A stretch of DNA of 64,000 bases from NCBI GenBank assembly GCA_036273515.1, contig DASUHM010000002.1, positions 748 to 64,747 on the forward strand. Direction: 5' to 3'. Numbering within the stretch: the stretch's first letter is position 1; every line of letters begins with the position of its first letter. Origin of the DNA: Gaiellales bacterium (GTDB lineage: Bacteria > Actinomycetota > Thermoleophilia > Gaiellales > JAICJC01). Shown here piece by piece: positions 12,991-41,031 of the stretch. The notes under the pieces are model-generated. The model was not told the origin of the DNA. It did not search any database and worked only from the letters and a program-made list of their open reading frames with translations. The position numbers and the translations under genes are program-made.

Positions 12991-13827
12991 ATGCGCGCGA
13001 TGCGACTCGGCGTGGCCGTGTGGCTCACCGACACGGGCGTCGGCATCACGGAACTCGCGCGCATCGTCGAGGACGCCGGGCTCGAGTCGCTGTTCCTCAC
13101 GGAGCACAGCCACGTCCCGGCCAGCCGGGTCGACCTGATCGCGGGCGACCGGCCGGGCGAGGACGCGCGGCTGCTCGACCAGTTCACCGCGCTCGGCGCG
13201 GCCGCGGCCTGCACGACCCGGCTGCGCCTGGGGACCGGCATCTGCATCGTGCCCCAGCACGACCCGATCGCCCTCGCGAAGCAGGTCGCGACGATCGACC
13301 ACATCTCGGGCGGGCGCTTCCTCTTCGGCGTCGGCGCCGGCTGGCTCGTCGAGGAGCTGCGAAACCACGGCGTCGATCCGGCGACGCGGTGGGCGCTGAT
13401 GGAGGAGCAGATCCTCGCGATGAAGGCGATCTGGACGACTGACGAGGCGGAGTTTCACGGCAACCACGTCGACTTCGACCGGATCTGGTGCTGGCCGAAG
13501 CCCGTCCAGGAGCCGCATCCGCCCCTCATCGTGGGCGGCGACTCGGCCCGCAGCCTGCGGCTGGCCGCGCTCCACGGCGACGCCTGGGGGCCGGTCGTCG
13601 ACGAGGTGGGCGAGTTCGAGCGCGGCCTGGCCGAGTGGCGCCGCCTGCGGGCGGAGGCGGGGCTCGGGCCCGGCGACGTGACCGTGTTCGCGTTCGACCT
13701 GGACGGGGAGCGGTTGGCCCGGTTTGCCGAGCTGGGTGTCGGCCGGATCGTCGTGCAGGTTCCGATCGGCGACGCGGAGGTGCTGCGGCGGCGGCTCGCC
13801 GACCTTGCCGCGCTGGCACCGGCGTAG
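12991..13827 (+). CDS. LLM-class (luciferase-like) F420-dependent oxidoreductase
   Basis: ATG at 12991 inside ORF 12091..13827 gives MRAMRLGVAVWLTDTGVGITELARIVEDAGLESLFLTEHSHVP ... ISGGRFLFGVGAGW, which are typical LLM motifs. Confidence 0.8.
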   Translation: MRAMRLGVAVWLTDTGVGITELARIVEDAGLESLFLTEHSHVPASRVDLIAGDRPGEDARLLDQFTALGAAAACTTRLRLGTGICIVPQHDPIALAKQVATIDHISGGRFLFGVGAGWLVEELRNHGVDPATRWALMEEQILAMKAIWTTDEAEFHGNHVDFDRIWCWPKPVQEPHPPLIVGGDSARSLRLAALHGDAWGPVVDEVGEFERGLAEWRRLRAEAGLGPGDVTVFAFDLDGERLARFAELGVGRIVVQVPIGDAEVLRRRLADLAALAPA

Positions 13828-13841
13828 CCCGGACCAGGGCA

Positions 13842-13871
13842 GCGGGCGGGCCTCCGAGGAAGTCCGCCCGC
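13842..13871. terminator. GC hairpin GCGGGCGG-N14-CCGCCCGC between convergent genes
   Basis: 8-bp perfect stem read from the sequence, with no U-tract. It is adjacent to the REP-like copy at 13878. Confidence 0.35.
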
Positions 13872-13877
13872 AGGGTC

Positions 13878-13890
13878 GGGGTCAGACCCC
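13878..13890. repeat. GGGGTCAGACCCC palindrome overlapping the stop codon of ORF 13882..14247
   Basis: On the minus strand, the last codons GGG GTC TGA of the ORF lie inside the repeat. Confidence 0.8.
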
Positions 13891-14247
13891 TAGCGCCATC
13901 CGCCGGCGGCCGCGGAGGCCGATGGCCCCGGCGCCGACGAGGACGATCGACACGATGAAGCCCGCGCCGATCAGGGCGGACGTCCAGTCGAACGAGCTGT
14001 GAGTCACGGTCTTCGTGGTCGCGACCGGGACCTGGTGGATGTTCGTCACCTGCGCGAGCGTGCCGACCTTGTCAGCGCGGTCGGGCGAGAGCCGGACGTT
14101 GGTGTCCACCGACCGGTACGTGCCCTGATAGCCGGAAGCCGTCGAGGTGACGGGCTTGACGATGGCGAGCGGCTTGGCGGACGCAACCGGGGCGGCGACG
14201 GCGAGGACCGCGGCAGCCACGATGAGGGAGCGAGTCATGCGGAACAT
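13882..14247 (-). CDS. Secreted protein with C-terminal TM anchor and Arg-rich tail
   Basis: I chose the ATG at 14247 because SD GGAAGGA lies 7 nt upstream. The product is MFRMTRSLIVAAAVLAVAAPVASA (signal peptide), then a ~70-aa domain, then FDWTSALIGAGFIVSIVLVGAGAIGLRGRRR (sorting-signal-like tail). Confidence 0.55.
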   Translation of the reverse strand: MFRMTRSLIVAAAVLAVAAPVASAKPLAIVKPVTSTASGYQGTYRSVDTNVRLSPDRADKVGTLAQVTNIHQVPVATTKTVTHSSFDWTSALIGAGFIVSIVLVGAGAIGLRGRRRMALGV

Positions 14248-14361
14248 GTCTGGATCCTTCCGGGTGTGAGGGGAAAACATGGCCGCAGGCTACGGACGCG
14301 CGGTCACGCGTTCCACATCGCCCGATCCGGACGACGTGTGACGACGATCACACACGCGAGA

Positions 14362-14664
14362 TCAGGCCGGCGCGTTGCTCAGAACGTCGCCGAGCGCATA
14401 CATCGAGGAGCCCGACAGACCTCCCCGCGCGGTACCCGAGCAGGTCACCGTCGTCGATCCGCCGTTCACGTAGCCCGTCCAGCCGCAGGTGATGTGCGTC
14501 GCGCCCTGACGCTTCAGGTCGGCGGTGAGCCGGCGCATCTCGAGGGCGATGGGCGACGCATGATGGTGAGGCTTGCTGTCCCGGGCGACGATGAAGGCAC
14601 CCAGCGGGATGCCGACCAGCACGAGCACGACCACGAGGACGCTGCCGGCAGACGAGCGGGTCAC
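14362..14664 (-). CDS. Small N-terminally anchored protein with a 2-Cys extracytoplasmic domain (DUF4333-like pattern)
   Basis: GTG at 14664 inside ORF 14362..14985 gives VTRSSAGSVLVVVLVLVGIPLGAFIVARD (TM segment), followed by ...GATHITCGWTGYVNGGSTTVTCSG. Confidence 0.4.
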   Translation of the reverse strand: MTRSSAGSVLVVVLVLVGIPLGAFIVARDSKPHHHASPIALEMRRLTADLKRQGATHITCGWTGYVNGGSTTVTCSGTARGGLSGSSMYALGDVLSNAPA

Positions 14665-14765
14665 GTCGGCTTGGGAGCGACCACACGACGTGCATGGTCG
14701 GTGACGCGATCCAGGTTCACTGGACCGAGTATCTCGCCGGGTCGGCTGCCCGGCAACCGAAGGGA

Positions 14766-15437
14766 TCAGCCGTTCGCTGCGGTCGGCGCGAACCTCGCCG
14801 CCAGGTCTTCGGAGATCGCGACCGCGGTGTCGGGCGAGAATGTGGCCGCCGGGCCGATGACGATGAGCTCGTACGGGCCTTGCAGCCAGGTCACGCTCGT
14901 CGGACCATCGGGTCCGGCCAGCAGCGCACCTTGGATGCCTGGCTGGAGCTTCACCAGACGGTGGTCGGTACATGATGCGGCGCACACGGACGGGATCCCG
15001 TCGATGAACGACTGGTCGAGCTCGCCGTCGGGGTGCTTCGACTCGCGCACCCGAAAGGGGCCGTACGGCGACGAACCGTCGTACTCCTCGACGATCTCCG
15101 TCTCGCCGGCGGGGTAGTCGGCCGGCTTCGAGACGAACACACCCATCGGCGCGCCGGCGTCCGCCGGAAACGCCGCCGCGAAGGGCAGCGCGGACGCCGG
15201 CGGAATCGTCCGTTGCGCGACCTCCTTCATCCCATCAAAGGACTTCATCGGGAACGCCATCCGCTCGCCGTCGCCGCCCGGCGTCACCGTCATCGCGGGT
15301 ACGGAGCCGCCTTCGCTGGCCGTCGAGGCATGAGGGTTCGCACCGGAGCCTTCCTGCATGGCGGCGCCGCAGGCCGTCGCCCCCAGGGCGACGAGCCCGA
15401 GCACCGCAGCTTTCCGGACACCGGGCCACGAGCTCAT
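14766..15437 (-). CDS. Probable lipoprotein, function unknown
   Basis: 223-aa ORF starting MSSWPGVRKAAVLGLVALGATAC (signal plus Cys). An ECF-type promoter lies immediately upstream. Confidence 0.6.
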   Translation of the reverse strand: MSSWPGVRKAAVLGLVALGATACGAAMQEGSGANPHASTASEGGSVPAMTVTPGGDGERMAFPMKSFDGMKEVAQRTIPPASALPFAAAFPADAGAPMGVFVSKPADYPAGETEIVEEYDGSSPYGPFRVRESKHPDGELDQSFIDGIPSVCAASCTDHRLVKLQPGIQGALLAGPDGPTSVTWLQGPYELIVIGPAATFSPDTAVAISEDLAARFAPTAANG

Positions 15438-15441
15438 GTGG

Positions 15442-15470
15442 ATTAGACGGCTGTCGAGGCGACGAAGTTC
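15442..15470 (-). promoter_or_regulatory. ECF-sigma-type promoter GAACTT-N15-CGTCTAAT, 4 nt before ATG 15437
   Basis: The minus strand reads gccGAACTTCGTcgcctcgacagCCGTCTAATCcacATG. It is almost identical to the element at 15832-15859. Confidence 0.55.
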
Positions 15471-15533
15471 GGCAGAGAACCGTGTCAGCTCGGTTCCGGC
15501 GGCGGACGTCCAGCAGCGCCCGACATGGCTCCA

Positions 15534-15827
15534 CTAACCCTCACAGACGACAGTCTCGTGGCGGATGTTCATGGACCCCAACACGTTGACGAAGACCTGT
15601 CGACAGGCGGGGTCGTCACCCCATCGTGCGCTGACGCAGTTCCATCTCGTCCCATTCCCGGTCTGCGCAAAGCACCTGATTCGGGCGCCTCGCCGTCCGA
15701 ACTCGCGGTAGACCGCCCGGGTCACCTGGGCCTGAGTCGCCCGCTGCCGGTACTCGAACGCCCAGAAGAGCGCCGTGAACCCGACCACGAGGGCCGCGAT
15801 CGCGATCAGCGGGACGAGCTTCCGCAT
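15534..15827 (-). CDS. Small N-terminally anchored 4-Cys protein
   Basis: 97-aa ORF starting MRKLVPLIAIAALVVGFTALFWAF (TM segment), followed by a domain with four Cys. An ECF-type promoter lies immediately upstream. Confidence 0.55.
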   Translation of the reverse strand: MRKLVPLIAIAALVVGFTALFWAFEYRQRATQAQVTRAVYREFGRRGARIRCFAQTGNGTRWNCVSARWGDDPACRQVFVNVLGSMNIRHETVVCEG

Positions 15828-15831
15828 ACCG

Positions 15832-15859
15832 ATTAGACGGTCGCCGGTCTACGAAGTTC
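15832..15859 (-). promoter_or_regulatory. ECF-sigma-type promoter GAACTT-N14-CGTCTAAT, 4 nt before ATG 15827
   Basis: The minus strand reads gccGAACTTCGTagaccggcgaCCGTCTAATCggtATG. Confidence 0.55.
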
Positions 15860-16181
15860 GGCCGCCGGAGCGATCCTCGCGGGAACCCGGCCGCGGTTCC
15901 CAGATGACCGGCGGGTGCCAGAGATACGCGAGCAACGCCGTGGCGCAGAGGATCACGACGCCGGCGACGGCGAGCAGGAGCGCGAGCTGCAGATGCGGAT
16001 GGGTCGGCGGCGGCAGATCACACGCGCCCCGGTACGGCCCACATGCGAGCCGGTGCGTCCGGAGCGCGTTGTAGGCGGCGAGCGCGAGCACTCCAAGGCC
16101 GGTCACCGTCGCGAGGCGAATCAGCCAGGTTCTGGTTGCATCCACTCCCACCAACCCTACCGGGCTCTCGCGGAGGGTCAA
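15849..16181 (-). CDS. Hypothetical membrane protein (2 TM)
   Basis: 110-aa ORF with a TTG start, 5 nt after the nif3 stop. It has two hydrophobic segments flanking a Cys-containing loop. Confidence 0.45.
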   Translation of the reverse strand: MTLRESPVGLVGVDATRTWLIRLATVTGLGVLALAAYNALRTHRLACGPYRGACDLPPPTHPHLQLALLLAVAGVVILCATALLAYLWHPPVIWEPRPGSREDRSGGRTS

Positions 16182-16185
16182 ACGA

Positions 16186-17034
16186 CTATTTTGGGCCGTC
16201 GGGAAGGAACTCGGCCTCGAGTCCCAGCCCTTGGAACCACCCCACCATCGCCCGCTGCGGCGGCACCTCGGTGCCGTAGTGGGTGCCGTCGATCACGGCG
16301 ATGTCGCGCTCCTCGGCGAGGGCCATGAACTCGGCCGCCCAGCGCGTGAAGACGCCACCCGTGACGAACGTCTGGCAGCCGCGTGTGAGCGACTCGGTCA
16401 GCGCCTCGCGGTCGGCGCCACCGCCGCCGACGACGGCGACCCGGCCCGCAGCGTCCGTGCCGGCCCGTCGGCGCACCACCTGCACCGGCACGTCGGGTCC
16501 CAGGTCGGTGCCGAGCCGGGCGGCCAGCTCGTCCACGGTCGCATCGGACGGCCCGATGACGGCCGCGCCGCCGCCGATGCCCTCGGCGATCGGGAAGTAC
16601 TCGTCCTCGACCGGCACGCCCATGGCGGCGGCGCACAGGCGCGACGGCGACACCTCGGGGTGATGGTCGATCGGCGCGTGCACATGGTAGAAGCCGATGC
16701 CGTCGCGGCGCATCCGCTCGAACGTCTCCCGGGCGAGCGGCAGGAAGCCGGGCTCGTCGCCGTAGTCGATCGGGTGCTCCGAGAAGAGGAACGTCCCCGG
16801 CTCGAGCAGGCCGACCACCCGGTCGGACGGAAAGACGCAGGTCACGACCCGGTCGACCTCGTCCGTGCCGCGCACGAGCAGCCCGTTCCAGCGGCCCTCG
16901 TAGCCGGGCTCGGCGTACTCGCGCCAGTACGGGTCGGGATAGACGAGCTCGAAGAGGTCGGCCCACTCGTCGCCACGCACGTCCTGGGTGCCGAAGTACT
17001 CGTCCAGCCGCTCGACGAGGTCGTCGCGCCTCAT
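16186..17034 (-). CDS. Nif3-like dinuclear-metal-centre protein (GTP cyclohydrolase 1 type 2 family)
   Basis: ATG at 17034 overlaps the pheT stop (ATGA). The product starts MRRDDLVERLDEYFG and contains FSEHPIDYG, HVHAPIDHHPE and GTHYGTE motifs. Confidence 0.6.
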   Translation of the reverse strand: MRRDDLVERLDEYFGTQDVRGDEWADLFELVYPDPYWREYAEPGYEGRWNGLLVRGTDEVDRVVTCVFPSDRVVGLLEPGTFLFSEHPIDYGDEPGFLPLARETFERMRRDGIGFYHVHAPIDHHPEVSPSRLCAAAMGVPVEDEYFPIAEGIGGGAAVIGPSDATVDELAARLGTDLGPDVPVQVVRRRAGTDAAGRVAVVGGGGADREALTESLTRGCQTFVTGGVFTRWAAEFMALAEERDIAVIDGTHYGTEVPPQRAMVGWFQGLGLEAEFLPDGPK

Positions 17035-39687: not shown

Positions 39688-40377
39688 CTACTCCGGCCGC
39701 GCCTTCCACGAGACGGTGTAGGCGATCGTCCAGCGTGCTCCGCAGACGCCGCAGTCGCGGTCGCCTTGCGCCTCGACGGCGAACGTCGTGCTCGGTTGGC
39801 CGATCGAGATCGTCTCGATCGGCGTGGCGCAGACCGGGCACGCGACGAGCAGCTGGGCGGGCCGGTTGCCGGCGTGCAGGAATGGCGCAGGGTGCGGGGT
39901 CTGGCGAGGTCGCGGCCTTGCCGCCATCTCCTCGTGGCGCCCCGGTCGGGACAGCATCCGGATGAGCTCGCTGCGCACCTTCTGCGGATCGGCGTCGAAG
40001 TCGCGCAGGATCCGCGCTCCCACCCCGCCGTCCTCCCGCACCAGGCCGAGCAGGATGTGCTCGGTGCCGATGTAGTTGTGATCGAGCTCGAGCGCCTCCT
40101 GCAGCGCCAGCTCGAGCACCTTCTTCACCCGCGGCGTGAACGGGATCTGGCCGGTGTCGACCTCGTCACCCTGGCCGACGATGCGAGCGACCTGCGCGCG
40201 TACCTCGTCGGCGGTGATGTCGAGGGTGTCGAGGACGCGAGCCGCCAGCCCGTCCTCCTCGCGCAGCAGGCCGAGCAGGATGTGCTCGGTGCCGATGTAG
40301 TTGTGCTTGAGGAGTCTCGCCTCATCCTGGGCCAACACGACCACCTGACGGGCCCGCTCGGTAAAGCGTTCGAACAT
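39688..40377 (-). CDS. Clp-N (ClpA/B/C N-terminal repeat) domain protein with C-terminal CxxC...CxxC zinc-ribbon, paralog 2
   Basis: 229-aa ORF. The N-terminus MFERFTERARQVVVLAQDEARLLKHNYIGTEHILLGLLRE is the ClpC-type N-domain, and a second repeat is present. There is no AAA+ module. The C-terminus reads ACPVCATPIET...GDRDCGVCGARWTIAYTVS. Confidence 0.85.
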   Translation of the reverse strand: MFERFTERARQVVVLAQDEARLLKHNYIGTEHILLGLLREEDGLAARVLDTLDITADEVRAQVARIVGQGDEVDTGQIPFTPRVKKVLELALQEALELDHNYIGTEHILLGLVREDGGVGARILRDFDADPQKVRSELIRMLSRPGRHEEMAARPRPRQTPHPAPFLHAGNRPAQLLVACPVCATPIETISIGQPSTTFAVEAQGDRDCGVCGARWTIAYTVSWKARPE

Positions 40378-40401: not shown

Positions 40402-41031
40402 CTACCCGGACAGCTCGCGTAGCGAGACGGTGTAGGCGATCGACCACCGCTTGCCGCAGTTGTGGCAGGTGCGATCGCCCTCGGCGGAGACGTCGAGGTT
40501 CGAGCCGGACCTCTCGCGGATGACCGTCTCCAGCCCCTGGCCGCACGCGGGGCATGCGATCACGACCTGCCGGATCCGGTCCGGTCCCCGCCGGCTCGGC
40601 GGCGGAAGCCGGCCGATGACCTCGTTTCGGATGGTCTCGGCATCCGCGTCGAACTCGAGCAGGATGCGTGCCGCGACGCCCTCGTTCTCGCGGACGAGGC
40701 CGAGCAGGATGTGCTCGGTCGCGATGTAGTCATGGCCGAGCGAAAGCGACTCCCGCAGCGCCAGCTCGAGCACATTCCTGGCCCGTGGAGTGAAGGCGAT
40801 CTGGCCGGTGACGACCTCATCTCCCTGAGCGACGATCCGGGCGACCTGCGCACGCACCTCCTCTTCGGTGACGTGGAGGGTCTCCAGGACGCGGGCAGCG
40901 AGGCCGTCCTCCTCGCGCAGCAGGCCCAGCAGGATGTGCTCGGTGCCGATGTAGTCGTGCTTCAGCGTGCGGGCCTCGTCCTGCGCGAGGACGACCACCT
41001 GGCGGGCCCGCTCCGTGAACCGTTCGAACAT
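40402..41031 (-). CDS. Clp-N domain protein with C-terminal zinc-ribbon, paralog 1
   Basis: 209-aa ORF with the same architecture. The C-terminus reads ACPACGQGLET...GDRTCHNCGKRWSIAYTVS. It shares a 15-nt upstream block, GCTCTGCGAGACTGA, with paralog 2. Confidence 0.85.
   Translation of the reverse strand: MFERFTERARQVVVLAQDEARTLKHDYIGTEHILLGLLREEDGLAARVLETLHVTEEEVRAQVARIVAQGDEVVTGQIAFTPRARNVLELALRESLSLGHDYIATEHILLGLVRENEGVAARILLEFDADAETIRNEVIGRLPPPSRRGPDRIRQVVIACPACGQGLETVIRERSGSNLDVSAEGDRTCHNCGKRWSIAYTVSLRELSG

What the first reader, a model, noticed from the sequence alone, without database searches (positions are those of the whole stretch)
15438..15863. Two near-identical ECF-sigma-type promoters placed at a fixed distance from the ATG of adjacent small envelope-protein genes
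Upstream of ATG 15437 the minus strand reads gccGAACTTCGTcgcctcgacagCCGTCTAATCcacATG. Upstream of ATG 15827 it reads gccGAACTTCGTagaccggcgaCCGTCTAATCggtATG.

The conserved blocks are GCCGAACTTCGT and CCGTCTAATC. Together they give AAC-N16/17-CGTC, the classical ECF (group IV sigma) -35/-10 architecture (compare GGAACTT-N16-TCTNA for RpoE-like factors).

Both elements end exactly 4 nt before the start codon, which implies leaderless or near-leaderless transcripts.

A weaker GGAAC-N15-CGTA lies at 14291-14314, upstream of the next small gene. No sigma or anti-sigma gene is present in the window, so these would be remote regulon members.
Basis: seen in the sequence. Interest (0 to 1): 0.62.

Follow-up and report, generated by a model that had tools for sequence, protein, structure and literature searches.

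The report
Paired leaderless ECF-sigma promoters, envelope genes
Two adjacent genes for small cell-envelope proteins in an uncultured soil actinobacterium (Gaiellales-like) each carry a textbook alternative-sigma (ECF) promoter placed so that transcription should begin on the start codon itself; this is a well-supported but ordinary example of a known kind of regulation.

Summary
On the minus strand, GCCGAACTTCGT-N11/N10-CCGTCTAATC sits 3 nt before ATG 15437 (a 223-aa lipoprotein) and ATG 15827 (a 97-aa membrane-anchored protein). Chance expects 0 matches, and a motif matrix scores both sites 28.9 bits against a shuffle maximum of 20.5.

The flanks and the two proteins are unrelated, so this is not a simple segmental duplication. 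The core GAAC(T/C)T ... CGTCTAA and its distance to the start codon (CGTC-N8/9-ATG) recur before orthologues of both genes in other metagenomic lineages. Some of these lie in quite different gene neighbourhoods, and the spacers and flanks differ.

The geometry matches mapped E. coli sigma-E promoters and puts +1 on the A of the ATG. The sequence matches Streptomyces sigma-E targets (GGAAC-N16/17-CGTCT), half of which encode envelope proteins. In an unrelated metagenomic contig, the same motif at the same distance precedes an ECF sigma/anti-sigma operon.

Three limits remain. The cognate sigma was not found, and none is in the window. No transcription start data exist. The exact 18-base motif is private to this lineage.

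Verdict: interpretation supported; a new member of a known kind; modest interest.

The parts
15462..15473 (-). W1 -35 region: GCCGAACTTCGT (core GAACTT 15470..15465)
   Evidence: The core is invariant in orthologues L099, L044 and L070. A natural 1-nt T deletion (GAACT-CGT) in L006 and L007 changes the spacer from 17 to 16.
15441..15450 (-). W1 -10 region: CCGTCTAATC (core CGTCTAA 15449..15443). It is followed by cac and then the ATG.
   Evidence: TCTAA-N5-A places the predicted +1 on A 15437, using the E. coli sigma-E geometry.
14766..15437 (-). p223: a 223-aa predicted lipoprotein (signal peptide with lipobox LGATAC). Predicted to be a leaderless transcript from W1.
   Evidence: Cys23 and Gly24 nearly invariant. 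AF2 model has pLDDT 80.8, with the core above 90. No Pfam, NCBIfam or PDB fold match. Transcribed in rhizosphere metatranscriptomes.
15851..15862 (-). W2 -35 region: GCCGAACTTCGT (core GAACTT 15859..15854). It overlaps the last codons and the TAG stop (15851..15849) of the upstream p98 gene.
   Evidence: Conserved in L002, L022, L070, L136 and L149.
15831..15840 (-). W2 -10 region: CCGTCTAATC (core CGTCTAA 15839..15833). It is followed by ggt and then the ATG.
15534..15827 (-). p97: a 97-aa protein with an N-terminal membrane anchor and a Cys-rich domain. Predicted to be a leaderless transcript from W2.
   Evidence: Orthologues in L149, L150, L151, L152 and L011 all carry the promoter.
15849..16145 (-). 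p98: a 98-aa protein with two membrane helices and a GTG start. Its 3' end contains W2. It has its own housekeeping-type promoter, TTGACC (16181..16176)-N16-TAGGGT (16159..16154)-N8-GTG.
   Evidence: L022 has the equivalent TCGACC-N17-TACGCT-N8-GTG.
14291..14314 (-). It is better read as TGGAAC-N17-TAGCCT (14292..14287), a sigma-A-like promoter of the 121-aa gene (13882..14247, Shine-Dalgarno GGAAGGA).
   Evidence: CGTA becomes CATA in L022 while TAGCCT is kept. The first ATG (14280) is out of frame in L070, so the real start is ATG 14247 with a leader of about 33 nt.

Best explanation
W1 and W2 are promoters read by an ECF (group IV) sigma factor of the AAC/CGTC class. The closest analogues are actinobacterial sigma-E of Streptomyces and RpoE-type factors. 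The sigma is encoded outside this window.

Sigma domain 4 would bind GAACTT and domain 2 would bind CGTCTAA, 16-17 nt downstream of AAC. Transcription would then start 6 nt after TCTAA, on the A of the ATG. Both mRNAs would therefore be leaderless and translated without a Shine-Dalgarno sequence.

The two genes encode a membrane-anchored Cys-rich protein (p97) and a lipoprotein (p223). Both are lineage-specific envelope proteins of an uncultured Gaiellales-like actinobacterium. On this reading they are switched on together when that sigma is released or made, most likely as part of an envelope-related response.

Shown: motif, geometry, conservation, absence of a Shine-Dalgarno sequence, the envelope nature of the products, and transcription of the genes in soil.

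Inferred: identity of the sigma, the exact start site, and the inducing signal.
For: **Not chance, not a duplication**
- 2 matches against 0 expected.
- 28.9 bits against a shuffle maximum of 20.5.
- Flanks and proteins are unrelated.

**Phylogenetic footprint (table)**
- p223 orthologues in L099, L044 and L070, and in L009 (52% identity, different context), keep [GA]AACTT-N-CGTC at AAC-N17-CGTC-N8-ATG.
- p97 orthologues keep GAAC(T/C)T-N16/17-CGTCTAA-N5/6-ATG. These are L149/L150 (a Gaiellales MAG), L151 (after an adh_short gene), L152 (after MarR and a tRNA) and L070. The spacers, discriminators and flanks differ.
- The p97 orthologue in L011 deviates. It has AAACCT-N-CGTCTTA, with a GTG start 11 nt after CGTC.
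- L009 has three adjacent envelope genes, each with AAC-N17-CGTC-N8-ATG or GTG.

**Geometry**
- GAACTT to TCTAA is 17 nt (W1) or 16 nt (W2), the discriminator is 5 nt, and -35 to +1 is 27 or 26 nt if +1 is the A of the ATG.
- Mapped E. coli sigma-E promoters use GGAACTT and TCAAA. They prefer a 16-nt spacer, a 5/6-nt discriminator, 26/27 nt in total, and A or G at +1 (PMC1312014).

**Sequence**
- Validated S. coelicolor sigma-E targets read GGAAC(C)-N16/17-CGTCT. Some lie within 7-20 nt of the start codon, and half encode envelope proteins (PMC6767563).

**Metagenome scan with core plus geometry**
- In high-GC contigs the RTG often opens long ORFs with signal peptides or lipoboxes (L125, L042, L080, L103 and others).
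- In L123/L137 it opens a 212-aa ECF sigma. This matches TIGR02937 at 109.9 bits against a cut-off of 42.9, and is 38% identical to RpoE. It is followed by an overlapping anti-sigma gene.

**Start codons**
- Both ATGs are the first start codons of their ORFs and lack a Shine-Dalgarno sequence.
- The sigma-70 scan finds nothing in this region.
Against: - No transcription start data exist. The only RNA evidence is assembled metatranscriptome contigs from 90-97% relatives. One of these (X27 contig 19) runs through W1 to about 46 nt upstream of the ATG. Another (X25 contig 5) joins the end of p97 to the W1 -35 block. Read-through transcription, or DNA carry-over, therefore covers the promoters. 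No terminator separates the genes.
- No cognate sigma was found, and none lies in the window or in any related locus fetched.
- The exact 18-base motif occurs nowhere else in 185,579 reference genomes beyond 8 scattered chance hits. A genome-wide regulon is therefore not demonstrated.
- Several p223 orthologues (L011, L024, L026) sit inside operons without the motif.
- Part of the 22/22 identity between W1 and W2 reflects shared ancestry rather than constraint.
Confidence: 0.8

Rival explanations
1. These are housekeeping (sigma-A) promoters. TCTAAT would serve as a -10 hexamer (5 of 6 matches to TATAAT) and give leaderless transcripts, as is common in Actinobacteria.
For: - TCTAAT resembles TATAAT.
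- The neighbouring genes p98 and p121 do appear to use TANNNT-type -10 elements close to their starts.
Against: - The second position is C, not the near-essential A. The sigma-70 scan finds 0 sites in 13700..16400.
- Only 4 nt separate TCTAAT from the ATG.
- In orthologues the final T varies (TCTAAC, TCTAAG), while CGTC, which has no role for sigma-A, is invariant.
- The conserved -35 is GAACTT, not TTGNNN.
Confidence: 0.06
2. The motif is a relic of a local duplication or rearrangement. A promoter-plus-signal-peptide segment was copied when p97 was inserted. The near-identity is then historical and at least one copy is non-functional, with the genes expressed by read-through from p98 or NIF3.
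For: - The locus is a rearrangement hot spot.
- L022 and L023 have one promoter driving a p97-N-terminus/p223 fusion.
- L099 lacks p98, W2 and the p97 N-terminus.
- L136 has an IS481-type insertion right after the promoter.
- L149 lacks p223.
- GCC...CGTAG flanks are shared only among the NIF3-linked loci.
- RNA contigs span the promoters.
Against: - There is no flanking similarity within the window.
- The core and geometry are kept across lineages whose spacers and flanks have diverged, and before p97 in unrelated contexts (L151, L152, L011).
- The same core precedes unrelated envelope genes (L009a, L009c, L125, L042, L080, L103) and an ECF sigma gene.
- Shared history and present function are compatible.
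Confidence: 0.05
3. The conserved blocks are the operator of a DNA-binding regulator, or another protein-binding site, rather than sigma recognition elements.
For: CGAACTTCG is a short imperfect palindrome (CGAA-C-TTCG). The blocks are longer than a minimal ECF core.
Against: - The element has two parts, a spacer that varies by 1 nt, and no symmetry between the blocks.
- The palindromic flanks are not conserved in orthologues (CGG, CCT, GCG follow GAACTT), whereas AAC and CGTC are.
- The position relative to the start codon is exactly that expected of -35 and -10 elements.
Confidence: 0.04

Closest known systems
Streptomyces coelicolor sigma-E (ECF39) target promoters (Tran et al. 2019, PMC6767563)
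   Same: - Actinobacterial host.
- Motif (G)GAAC(C/T)-N16/17-CGTCT(A/T).
- About half of the targets are lipoproteins, membrane or secreted proteins.
- Some promoters lie within 7-20 nt of the start codon.
- The sigma gene need not carry its own motif: sigE is driven by CseBC.
   Different: - The host here is a Gaiellales-like Thermoleophilia, not Streptomyces.
- The -35 is GAACTT rather than GGAACC, and the -10 extends to CGTCTAA.
- The target genes (p97, p223) have no homologues outside a narrow metagenomic clade.
- The presence of a sigE-cseABC-type system could not be checked.
E. coli RpoE (sigma-E, ECF02) promoters (Rhodius et al. 2006, PMC1312014)
   Same: -35 GGAACTT, a -10 of the TCNAA type, a 16 (15-19) nt spacer, a 5/6-nt discriminator, 26/27 nt from -35 to +1, and a purine at +1. 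W1 and W2 fit all of these if +1 is the A of the ATG.
   Different: - There is no A/T-rich UP element (the upstream DNA is GC-rich).
- The host phylum is different.
- E. coli sigma-E transcripts have leaders.
- CGTC rather than GGTC precedes the TCTAA-type core.
Leaderless mRNAs of Actinobacteria (mycobacteria, Streptomyces, Corynebacterium; general knowledge, not tested here)
   Same: The start codon lies at the predicted 5' end, there is no Shine-Dalgarno sequence, and the -10 element lies 6-7 nt upstream of the ATG or GTG.
   Different: Most described leaderless genes use sigma-A TANNNT promoters. Here the promoter is of ECF type, and the start is predicted, not mapped.
Autoregulated ECF sigma/anti-sigma operon on metagenome contig L123/L137
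   Same: An identical core and geometry (GGGAACTTCG-N12-GGCGTCTAATCATC-ATG) directly before the sigma gene.
   Different: The contig has 62% GC and non-actinobacterial neighbours. It is therefore not the cognate sigma of the window's organism, and shows only what kind of factor reads such a motif.

Membership tests
ECF (group IV sigma) dependent promoter | -35 element with a conserved AAC core (GGAAC-like) | tested here: met
   GAACTT in W1 and W2. AAC is invariant in all 15 independent related sites.
ECF (group IV sigma) dependent promoter | -10 element with a CGT/GTC core | tested here: met
   CGTCTAA in W1 and W2. CGTC is invariant in all related sites.
ECF (group IV sigma) dependent promoter | Fixed spacing (AAC-N16/17-CGT) with an unconserved spacer sequence | tested here: met
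   The spacer is 17 nt (W1) or 16 nt (W2) and 16-17 nt in all relatives. The spacer sequences are unrelated.
ECF (group IV sigma) dependent promoter | Transcription starts 5-8 nt downstream of the -10 element | tested here: inconclusive
   The geometry predicts +1 on the A of the ATG. The only RNA data are assembled metatranscriptome contigs, which have no 5'-end resolution and run across the promoters.
ECF (group IV sigma) dependent promoter | Activity depends on a specific ECF sigma factor | not testable with these tools
   No sigma gene is in the window. The source genome is not in the genome collection.
ECF (group IV sigma) dependent promoter | Motif conserved upstream of orthologous genes (regulon conservation) | tested here: met
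   Shown for p223 and p97 orthologues at 52-94% identity in syntenic and non-syntenic contexts.
ECF (group IV sigma) dependent promoter | Same motif upstream of the cognate sigma gene (autoregulation; common but not universal) | not testable with these tools
   Seen only on the unrelated contig L123. ECF39 sigE is itself not autoregulated.
Leaderless mRNA | No Shine-Dalgarno sequence, and the start codon is the first in its ORF and abuts the promoter | tested here: met
   The conserved N-terminal signal peptide or lipobox fixes the start.
Leaderless mRNA | The primary 5' end coincides with the start codon | not testable with these tools
   No raw RNA reads or 5'-end libraries exist for this organism.
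Sigma-70/sigma-A housekeeping promoter | -10 hexamer TANNNT with A at position 2, and a TTGNNN -35 | tested here: not met
   TCTAAT has C at position 2. The scan finds 0 sites. The final T varies in orthologues.
E. coli RpoE-type full promoter | A/T-rich UP element upstream of the -35 | tested here: not met
   The upstream sequence is GC-rich (ggttctctgcc and gctccggcggcc).

The most novel reading that the evidence does not exclude
The two promoters may mark an undescribed ECF-sigma regulon of Gaiellales/Thermoleophilia. Its members would be mostly leaderless, lineage-specific small Cys-rich membrane proteins and lipoproteins (the p97 and p223 families, plus L009, L080 and L103-type genes). 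They would travel as compact promoter-plus-gene cassettes and be gained, lost and fused at hot spots such as the one downstream of NIF3. If so, the motif would give a handle on the envelope-stress response of an abundant, uncultured soil lineage, and on an ECF group that works almost wholly through leaderless mRNAs.
Probability: 0.3. Interest if true: 0.45.

Novelty: new member of a known kind. Interest (0 to 1): 0.3.

Why it matters
The finding gives a confident regulatory annotation for five otherwise uncharacterised orphan genes in an uncultured soil actinobacterium. It also provides a compact, testable promoter model, GAAC(T/C)T-N14/15-CGTCTAA-N5/6-ATG. This model can be used to find the regulon and its sigma once a complete Gaiellales genome is scanned.

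It shows that ECF promoters in this lineage are positioned to yield leaderless mRNAs, and that the promoter moves together with its gene. It does not reveal a new mechanism.

Tried and rejected
- **Strict motif scan of 185,579 reference genomes.** It returned 8 single hits in unrelated phyla, which is chance. The source genome is not in that collection, so a regulon or an autoregulated sigma could not be defined this way.
- **Search for an ECF sigma.** I ran Pfam on 16 ORFs and tblastn with RpoE, SigW and the L123 sigma against the window and all loci. None was found in the window or in related loci.
- **Weight-matrix and regular-expression scans of the window for further sites.**
  - The only hit at 14 bits or more is intragenic and antisense (31669, 17.8 bits, within the shuffle range).
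  - A weak AAC-N17-CGTC-N8-GTG lies before a Clp_N protein (40370, minus strand). It falls below the matrix threshold and was not followed up.
- **RNA evidence.** Only assembled metatranscriptome contigs from 90-97% relatives exist. They show the genes are transcribed but cannot place 5' ends.
- **Rfam and tRNA scans of the window.** Nothing was found.
- **Function of the regulated proteins.**
  - There are no Pfam or NCBIfam families.
  - The p223 AF2 model is confident, but the best PDB match is E 0.02 and TM 0.45 (Dip2269), so no fold was assigned.
  - p97 and p100 are not detectably related.
- **A recurrent ~61% GC metagenome hit (gtctGAACTTCC...CGTCTAACCTGGATG).** It proved to lie inside a polyphosphate-kinase-sized ORF. 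It is conserved as coding sequence and is not a promoter.
- **RNA hairpin or palindrome reading of CGAACTTCG.** I rejected this because the flanking bases are not conserved.

Full report
**1. The observation**

On the minus strand the window reads as follows:
- W1: gccGAACTTCGTcgcctcgacagCCGTCTAATCcacATG, with the ATG at 15437.
- W2: gccGAACTTCGTagaccggcgaCCGTCTAATCggtATG, with the ATG at 15827.

The pattern GAACTTCGT-N10/11-CCGTCTAAT occurs twice, against 0.00 expected. A two-block weight matrix built from orthologous sites scores both at 28.9 bits. The next window hit scores 17.8 bits, and the best score in 30 shuffled windows was 20.5 bits.

The spacing is AAC-N17-CGTC in W1 and AAC-N16-CGTC in W2, and CGTC-N8-ATG in both.

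**2. Not a segmental duplication within the window**

The 300 nt around the two sites do not align outside the blocks. The two downstream proteins are unrelated.

**3. The genes**

Independent gene calls on eight near-identical metagenome contigs give the same gene order. On the minus strand it is: NIF3, then p98 (two membrane helices, GTG 16145), p97 (ATG 15827), p223 (ATG 15437), p100 and p121.
- p97 has an N-terminal membrane anchor and four cysteines.
- p223 has a lipoprotein signal peptide, LGATAC. Its Cys and Gly are nearly invariant in 24 homologues.

Both ATGs are the first start codon in their ORFs and lack a Shine-Dalgarno sequence. None of the five small proteins matches Pfam or NCBIfam. 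A confident AF2 model of p223 has no significant PDB neighbour.

W2's -35 overlaps the last codons and the TAG stop of p98.

**4. The organism**

The sequence occurs only in soil and rhizosphere metagenomes. Ribosomal protein L20 is closest to the actinobacterial ones in the PDB (the organism assignment of those entries is from my own knowledge). A 73%-identical p97 orthologue lies in a syntenic stretch (IF3-L35-L20-PheS-PheT-NIF3) of NCBI MAG GCA_035279685.1, which is named 'Gaiellales bacterium'. The window has 71.8% GC. It is therefore most likely an uncultured Gaiellales (Thermoleophilia, Actinomycetota).

**5. Phylogenetic footprint**

Sites are tabulated.

Before p223 orthologues:
- L099 and L044 (95% identity): gccGAACTTcggcgcctcggcagCCGTCTAATccacATG.
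- L070 (80%): gccGAACTTcgtagttgccgcgaCCGTCTAATccgtATG.
- L009 (52%, unrelated context): gggAAACTTtcggacaacggcaggCGTCCACtgaacATG.

Before p97 orthologues:
- L149 and L150: gccGAACTTcctcgcccggcgaCCGTCTAAccgatcATG.
- L151 (after an adh_short gene): cgtGAACTTcgcccgggagcgcggCGTCTAAgggtcATG.
- L152 (after MarR and a tRNA): cgaGAACCTtcggcgggcggccgCCGTCTAATcggtATG.
- L011 (deviates in both blocks): ggAAACCT...CGTCTTAAcggtgatGTG.

L009 carries two further neighbouring envelope genes with the same layout, a 151-aa lipoprotein with a GTG start and a 150-aa membrane protein.

Across all of these, AAC and CGTC are invariant, the spacer is 16-17 nt, and the start codon follows CGTC by 8-9 nt (once by 11). 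The spacer, discriminator and flanking bases vary. Two near-identical strains (L006, L007) carry a 1-nt deletion, GAACT-CGT, that turns W1's spacer from 17 into 16.

**6. Comparison with mapped promoters**

E. coli sigma-E promoters mapped by 5' RACE have these features (PMC1312014):
- -35 GGAACTT and -10 TCAAA.
- A 16-nt spacer strongly preferred (range 15-19).
- A 5/6-nt discriminator.
- 26/27 nt from -35 to +1, and A or G at +1.

W1 and W2 give GAACTT-17/16-TCTAA-5-A. That is 27 and 26 nt if +1 is the A of the ATG. Variants with a 6-nt discriminator (L149, L022, L070) still place +1 on the A.

S. coelicolor sigma-E targets validated by ChIP-seq and S1 mapping read GGAAC(C)-N16/17-CGTCT. About half encode envelope proteins, and some lie 7-20 nt from the start codon. 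The sigE promoter itself is not a sigma-E target (PMC6767563). ECF39 transcription is controlled by a two-component system (PMC7826278).

**7. Metagenome scan**

I scanned with the core plus geometry, GAACTTSS-N12/13-CGTCTAA-N5-RTG.

In contigs of 64% GC or more, the RTG frequently opens a long ORF that begins with a signal peptide or lipobox:
- L125: 334 aa.
- L042 and L122: 274 aa.
- L080 and L119: 137 aa.
- L103, L132, L041 and L135: 124-156 aa, Cys-rich lipoproteins.
- The p223 orthologues also appear.

In L123 and L137 (62% GC), the ATG opens a 212-aa ECF sigma. It matches TIGR02937 at 109.9 bits against a cut-off of 42.9, and tblastn to RpoE gives 8e-32. An overlapping anti-sigma-like gene follows it. 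This contig is not from the window's lineage. It shows that this motif, at this distance, is what an autoregulated ECF operon looks like.

**8. What limits the claim**

- No ECF sigma is encoded in the window or in any related locus fetched.
- The strict 18-base motif is absent from 185,579 reference genomes apart from 8 chance singletons, and the source genome is not in that collection. A regulon therefore could not be defined.
- The only other window candidates are one intragenic antisense hit within the chance range and a weak site before a Clp_N gene at 40370.
- The RNA data are assembled metatranscriptome contigs from 90-97% relatives.
  - They show that p223, p97 and p121 are transcribed.
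  - One contig runs through W1 to about -46, and another joins the end of p97 to W1's -35 block.
  - Read-through, or DNA carry-over, therefore exists, and 5' ends cannot be read.
  - No terminator separates the genes.

**9. History of the pair**

The NIF3-p121 interval is highly plastic among close relatives:
- L022 and L023 have one promoter, and a p223 whose first 12 residues are those of p97.
- L099 lacks p98, W2 and the N-terminus of p97.
- L070 has both promoters, but p97 is truncated and p100 is missing.
- L136 has an IS481-type element right after the W2-type promoter.
- L149 lacks p223 and p100.

The extra identity beyond the core is shared only among these NIF3-linked loci, not with L151, L152 or L009. 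This covers GCC before GAAC, CGT or CGTAG after it, and C before CGTC. It therefore reflects common descent, while the core reflects constraint. It is met for the extended 22-base form but not for the functional core.

**10. The third site**

GGAAC-N15-CGTA (14314..14291) is conserved, but in L022 CGTA is CATA while TAGCCT is retained. The element also reads TGGAAC-N17-TAGCCT-N6-A, a housekeeping-type layout. The ATG at 14280 is out of frame in L070, so the gene starts at ATG 14247, behind the Shine-Dalgarno sequence GGAAGGA. I do not count this site as an ECF site.

**11. Verdict**

W1 and W2 are most probably ECF-sigma promoters that produce leaderless mRNAs for two lineage-specific envelope proteins (confidence about 0.8). 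The closest known systems are Streptomyces sigma-E targets (sequence, target class, host phylum) and E. coli RpoE promoters (geometry).

Membership in the class 'ECF-type promoter' is met on every sequence-level criterion. It is untested for sigma dependence and start site. This is a new member of a known kind, and interest is modest.

Noticed in passing
window 14337..14352: A perfect CRP/GlxR-type palindrome, TGTGA-N6-TCACA. It is the only one in the window, even when 1 mismatch is allowed. It lies just after the p100 stop and about 64 nt upstream of the predicted start of the p121 transcript. It is conserved in L070 and L149 (TGTGACCGCCGTCACA) and nearly so in L022.
   Followed up: partly
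window 16143..16181 (minus strand): The p98 gene appears to have a housekeeping-type promoter, TTGACC-N16-TAGGGT, ending 8 nt before its GTG start. This suggests a leaderless or 1-nt-leader transcript. L022 has the equivalent TCGACC-N17-TACGCT-N8-GTG.
   Followed up: partly
window 13882..16145 compared with L022, L023, L070, L099, L136, L149: The interval between NIF3 and p121 is a rearrangement hot spot among close relatives. It shows gene loss, a p97/p223 signal-peptide fusion, truncations, and an IS481-family insertion immediately downstream of the W2-type promoter (L136).
   Followed up: partly
L123 2356..4416 (also L137): An ECF sigma (212 aa) plus an overlapping anti-sigma gene. Directly before them lies GGGAACTTCG-N12-GGCGTCTAATCATC-ATG, the same leaderless geometry as in the window. 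The contig has 62% GC and non-actinobacterial neighbours (a GGDEF/HD-GYP regulator and an FG-GAP-like protein).
   Followed up: partly
L009 9466..11825: Three adjacent envelope-protein genes, one of them divergent, each have AAC-N17-CGTC-N8-ATG or GTG. The first was mis-called by the gene caller: its real start is a leaderless GTG that opens a lipoprotein signal peptide.
   Followed up: partly
window 40345..40370 (minus strand): A weak ECF-like layout, tcgAACgctttaccgagcgggccCGTCaggtggtcGTG, lies in the short gap between two tandem Clp_N-domain protein genes (40402..41031 and 39688..40377). It falls below the matrix threshold and its conservation was not checked.
   Followed up: no
L006 1434..1460 and L007 1511..1537: A natural variant of W1 has a single T deleted in the -35 region (GAACT-CGT). 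This converts the 17-nt spacer to 16 nt. It appears in two independent assemblies.
   Followed up: no
L010 5689..6412 and L011 10046..11774: Homologues of p223, p97 and, in L011, p98 co-occur in distant relatives, but in convergent rather than tandem orientation. This suggests a functional link between these orphan families.
   Followed up: no
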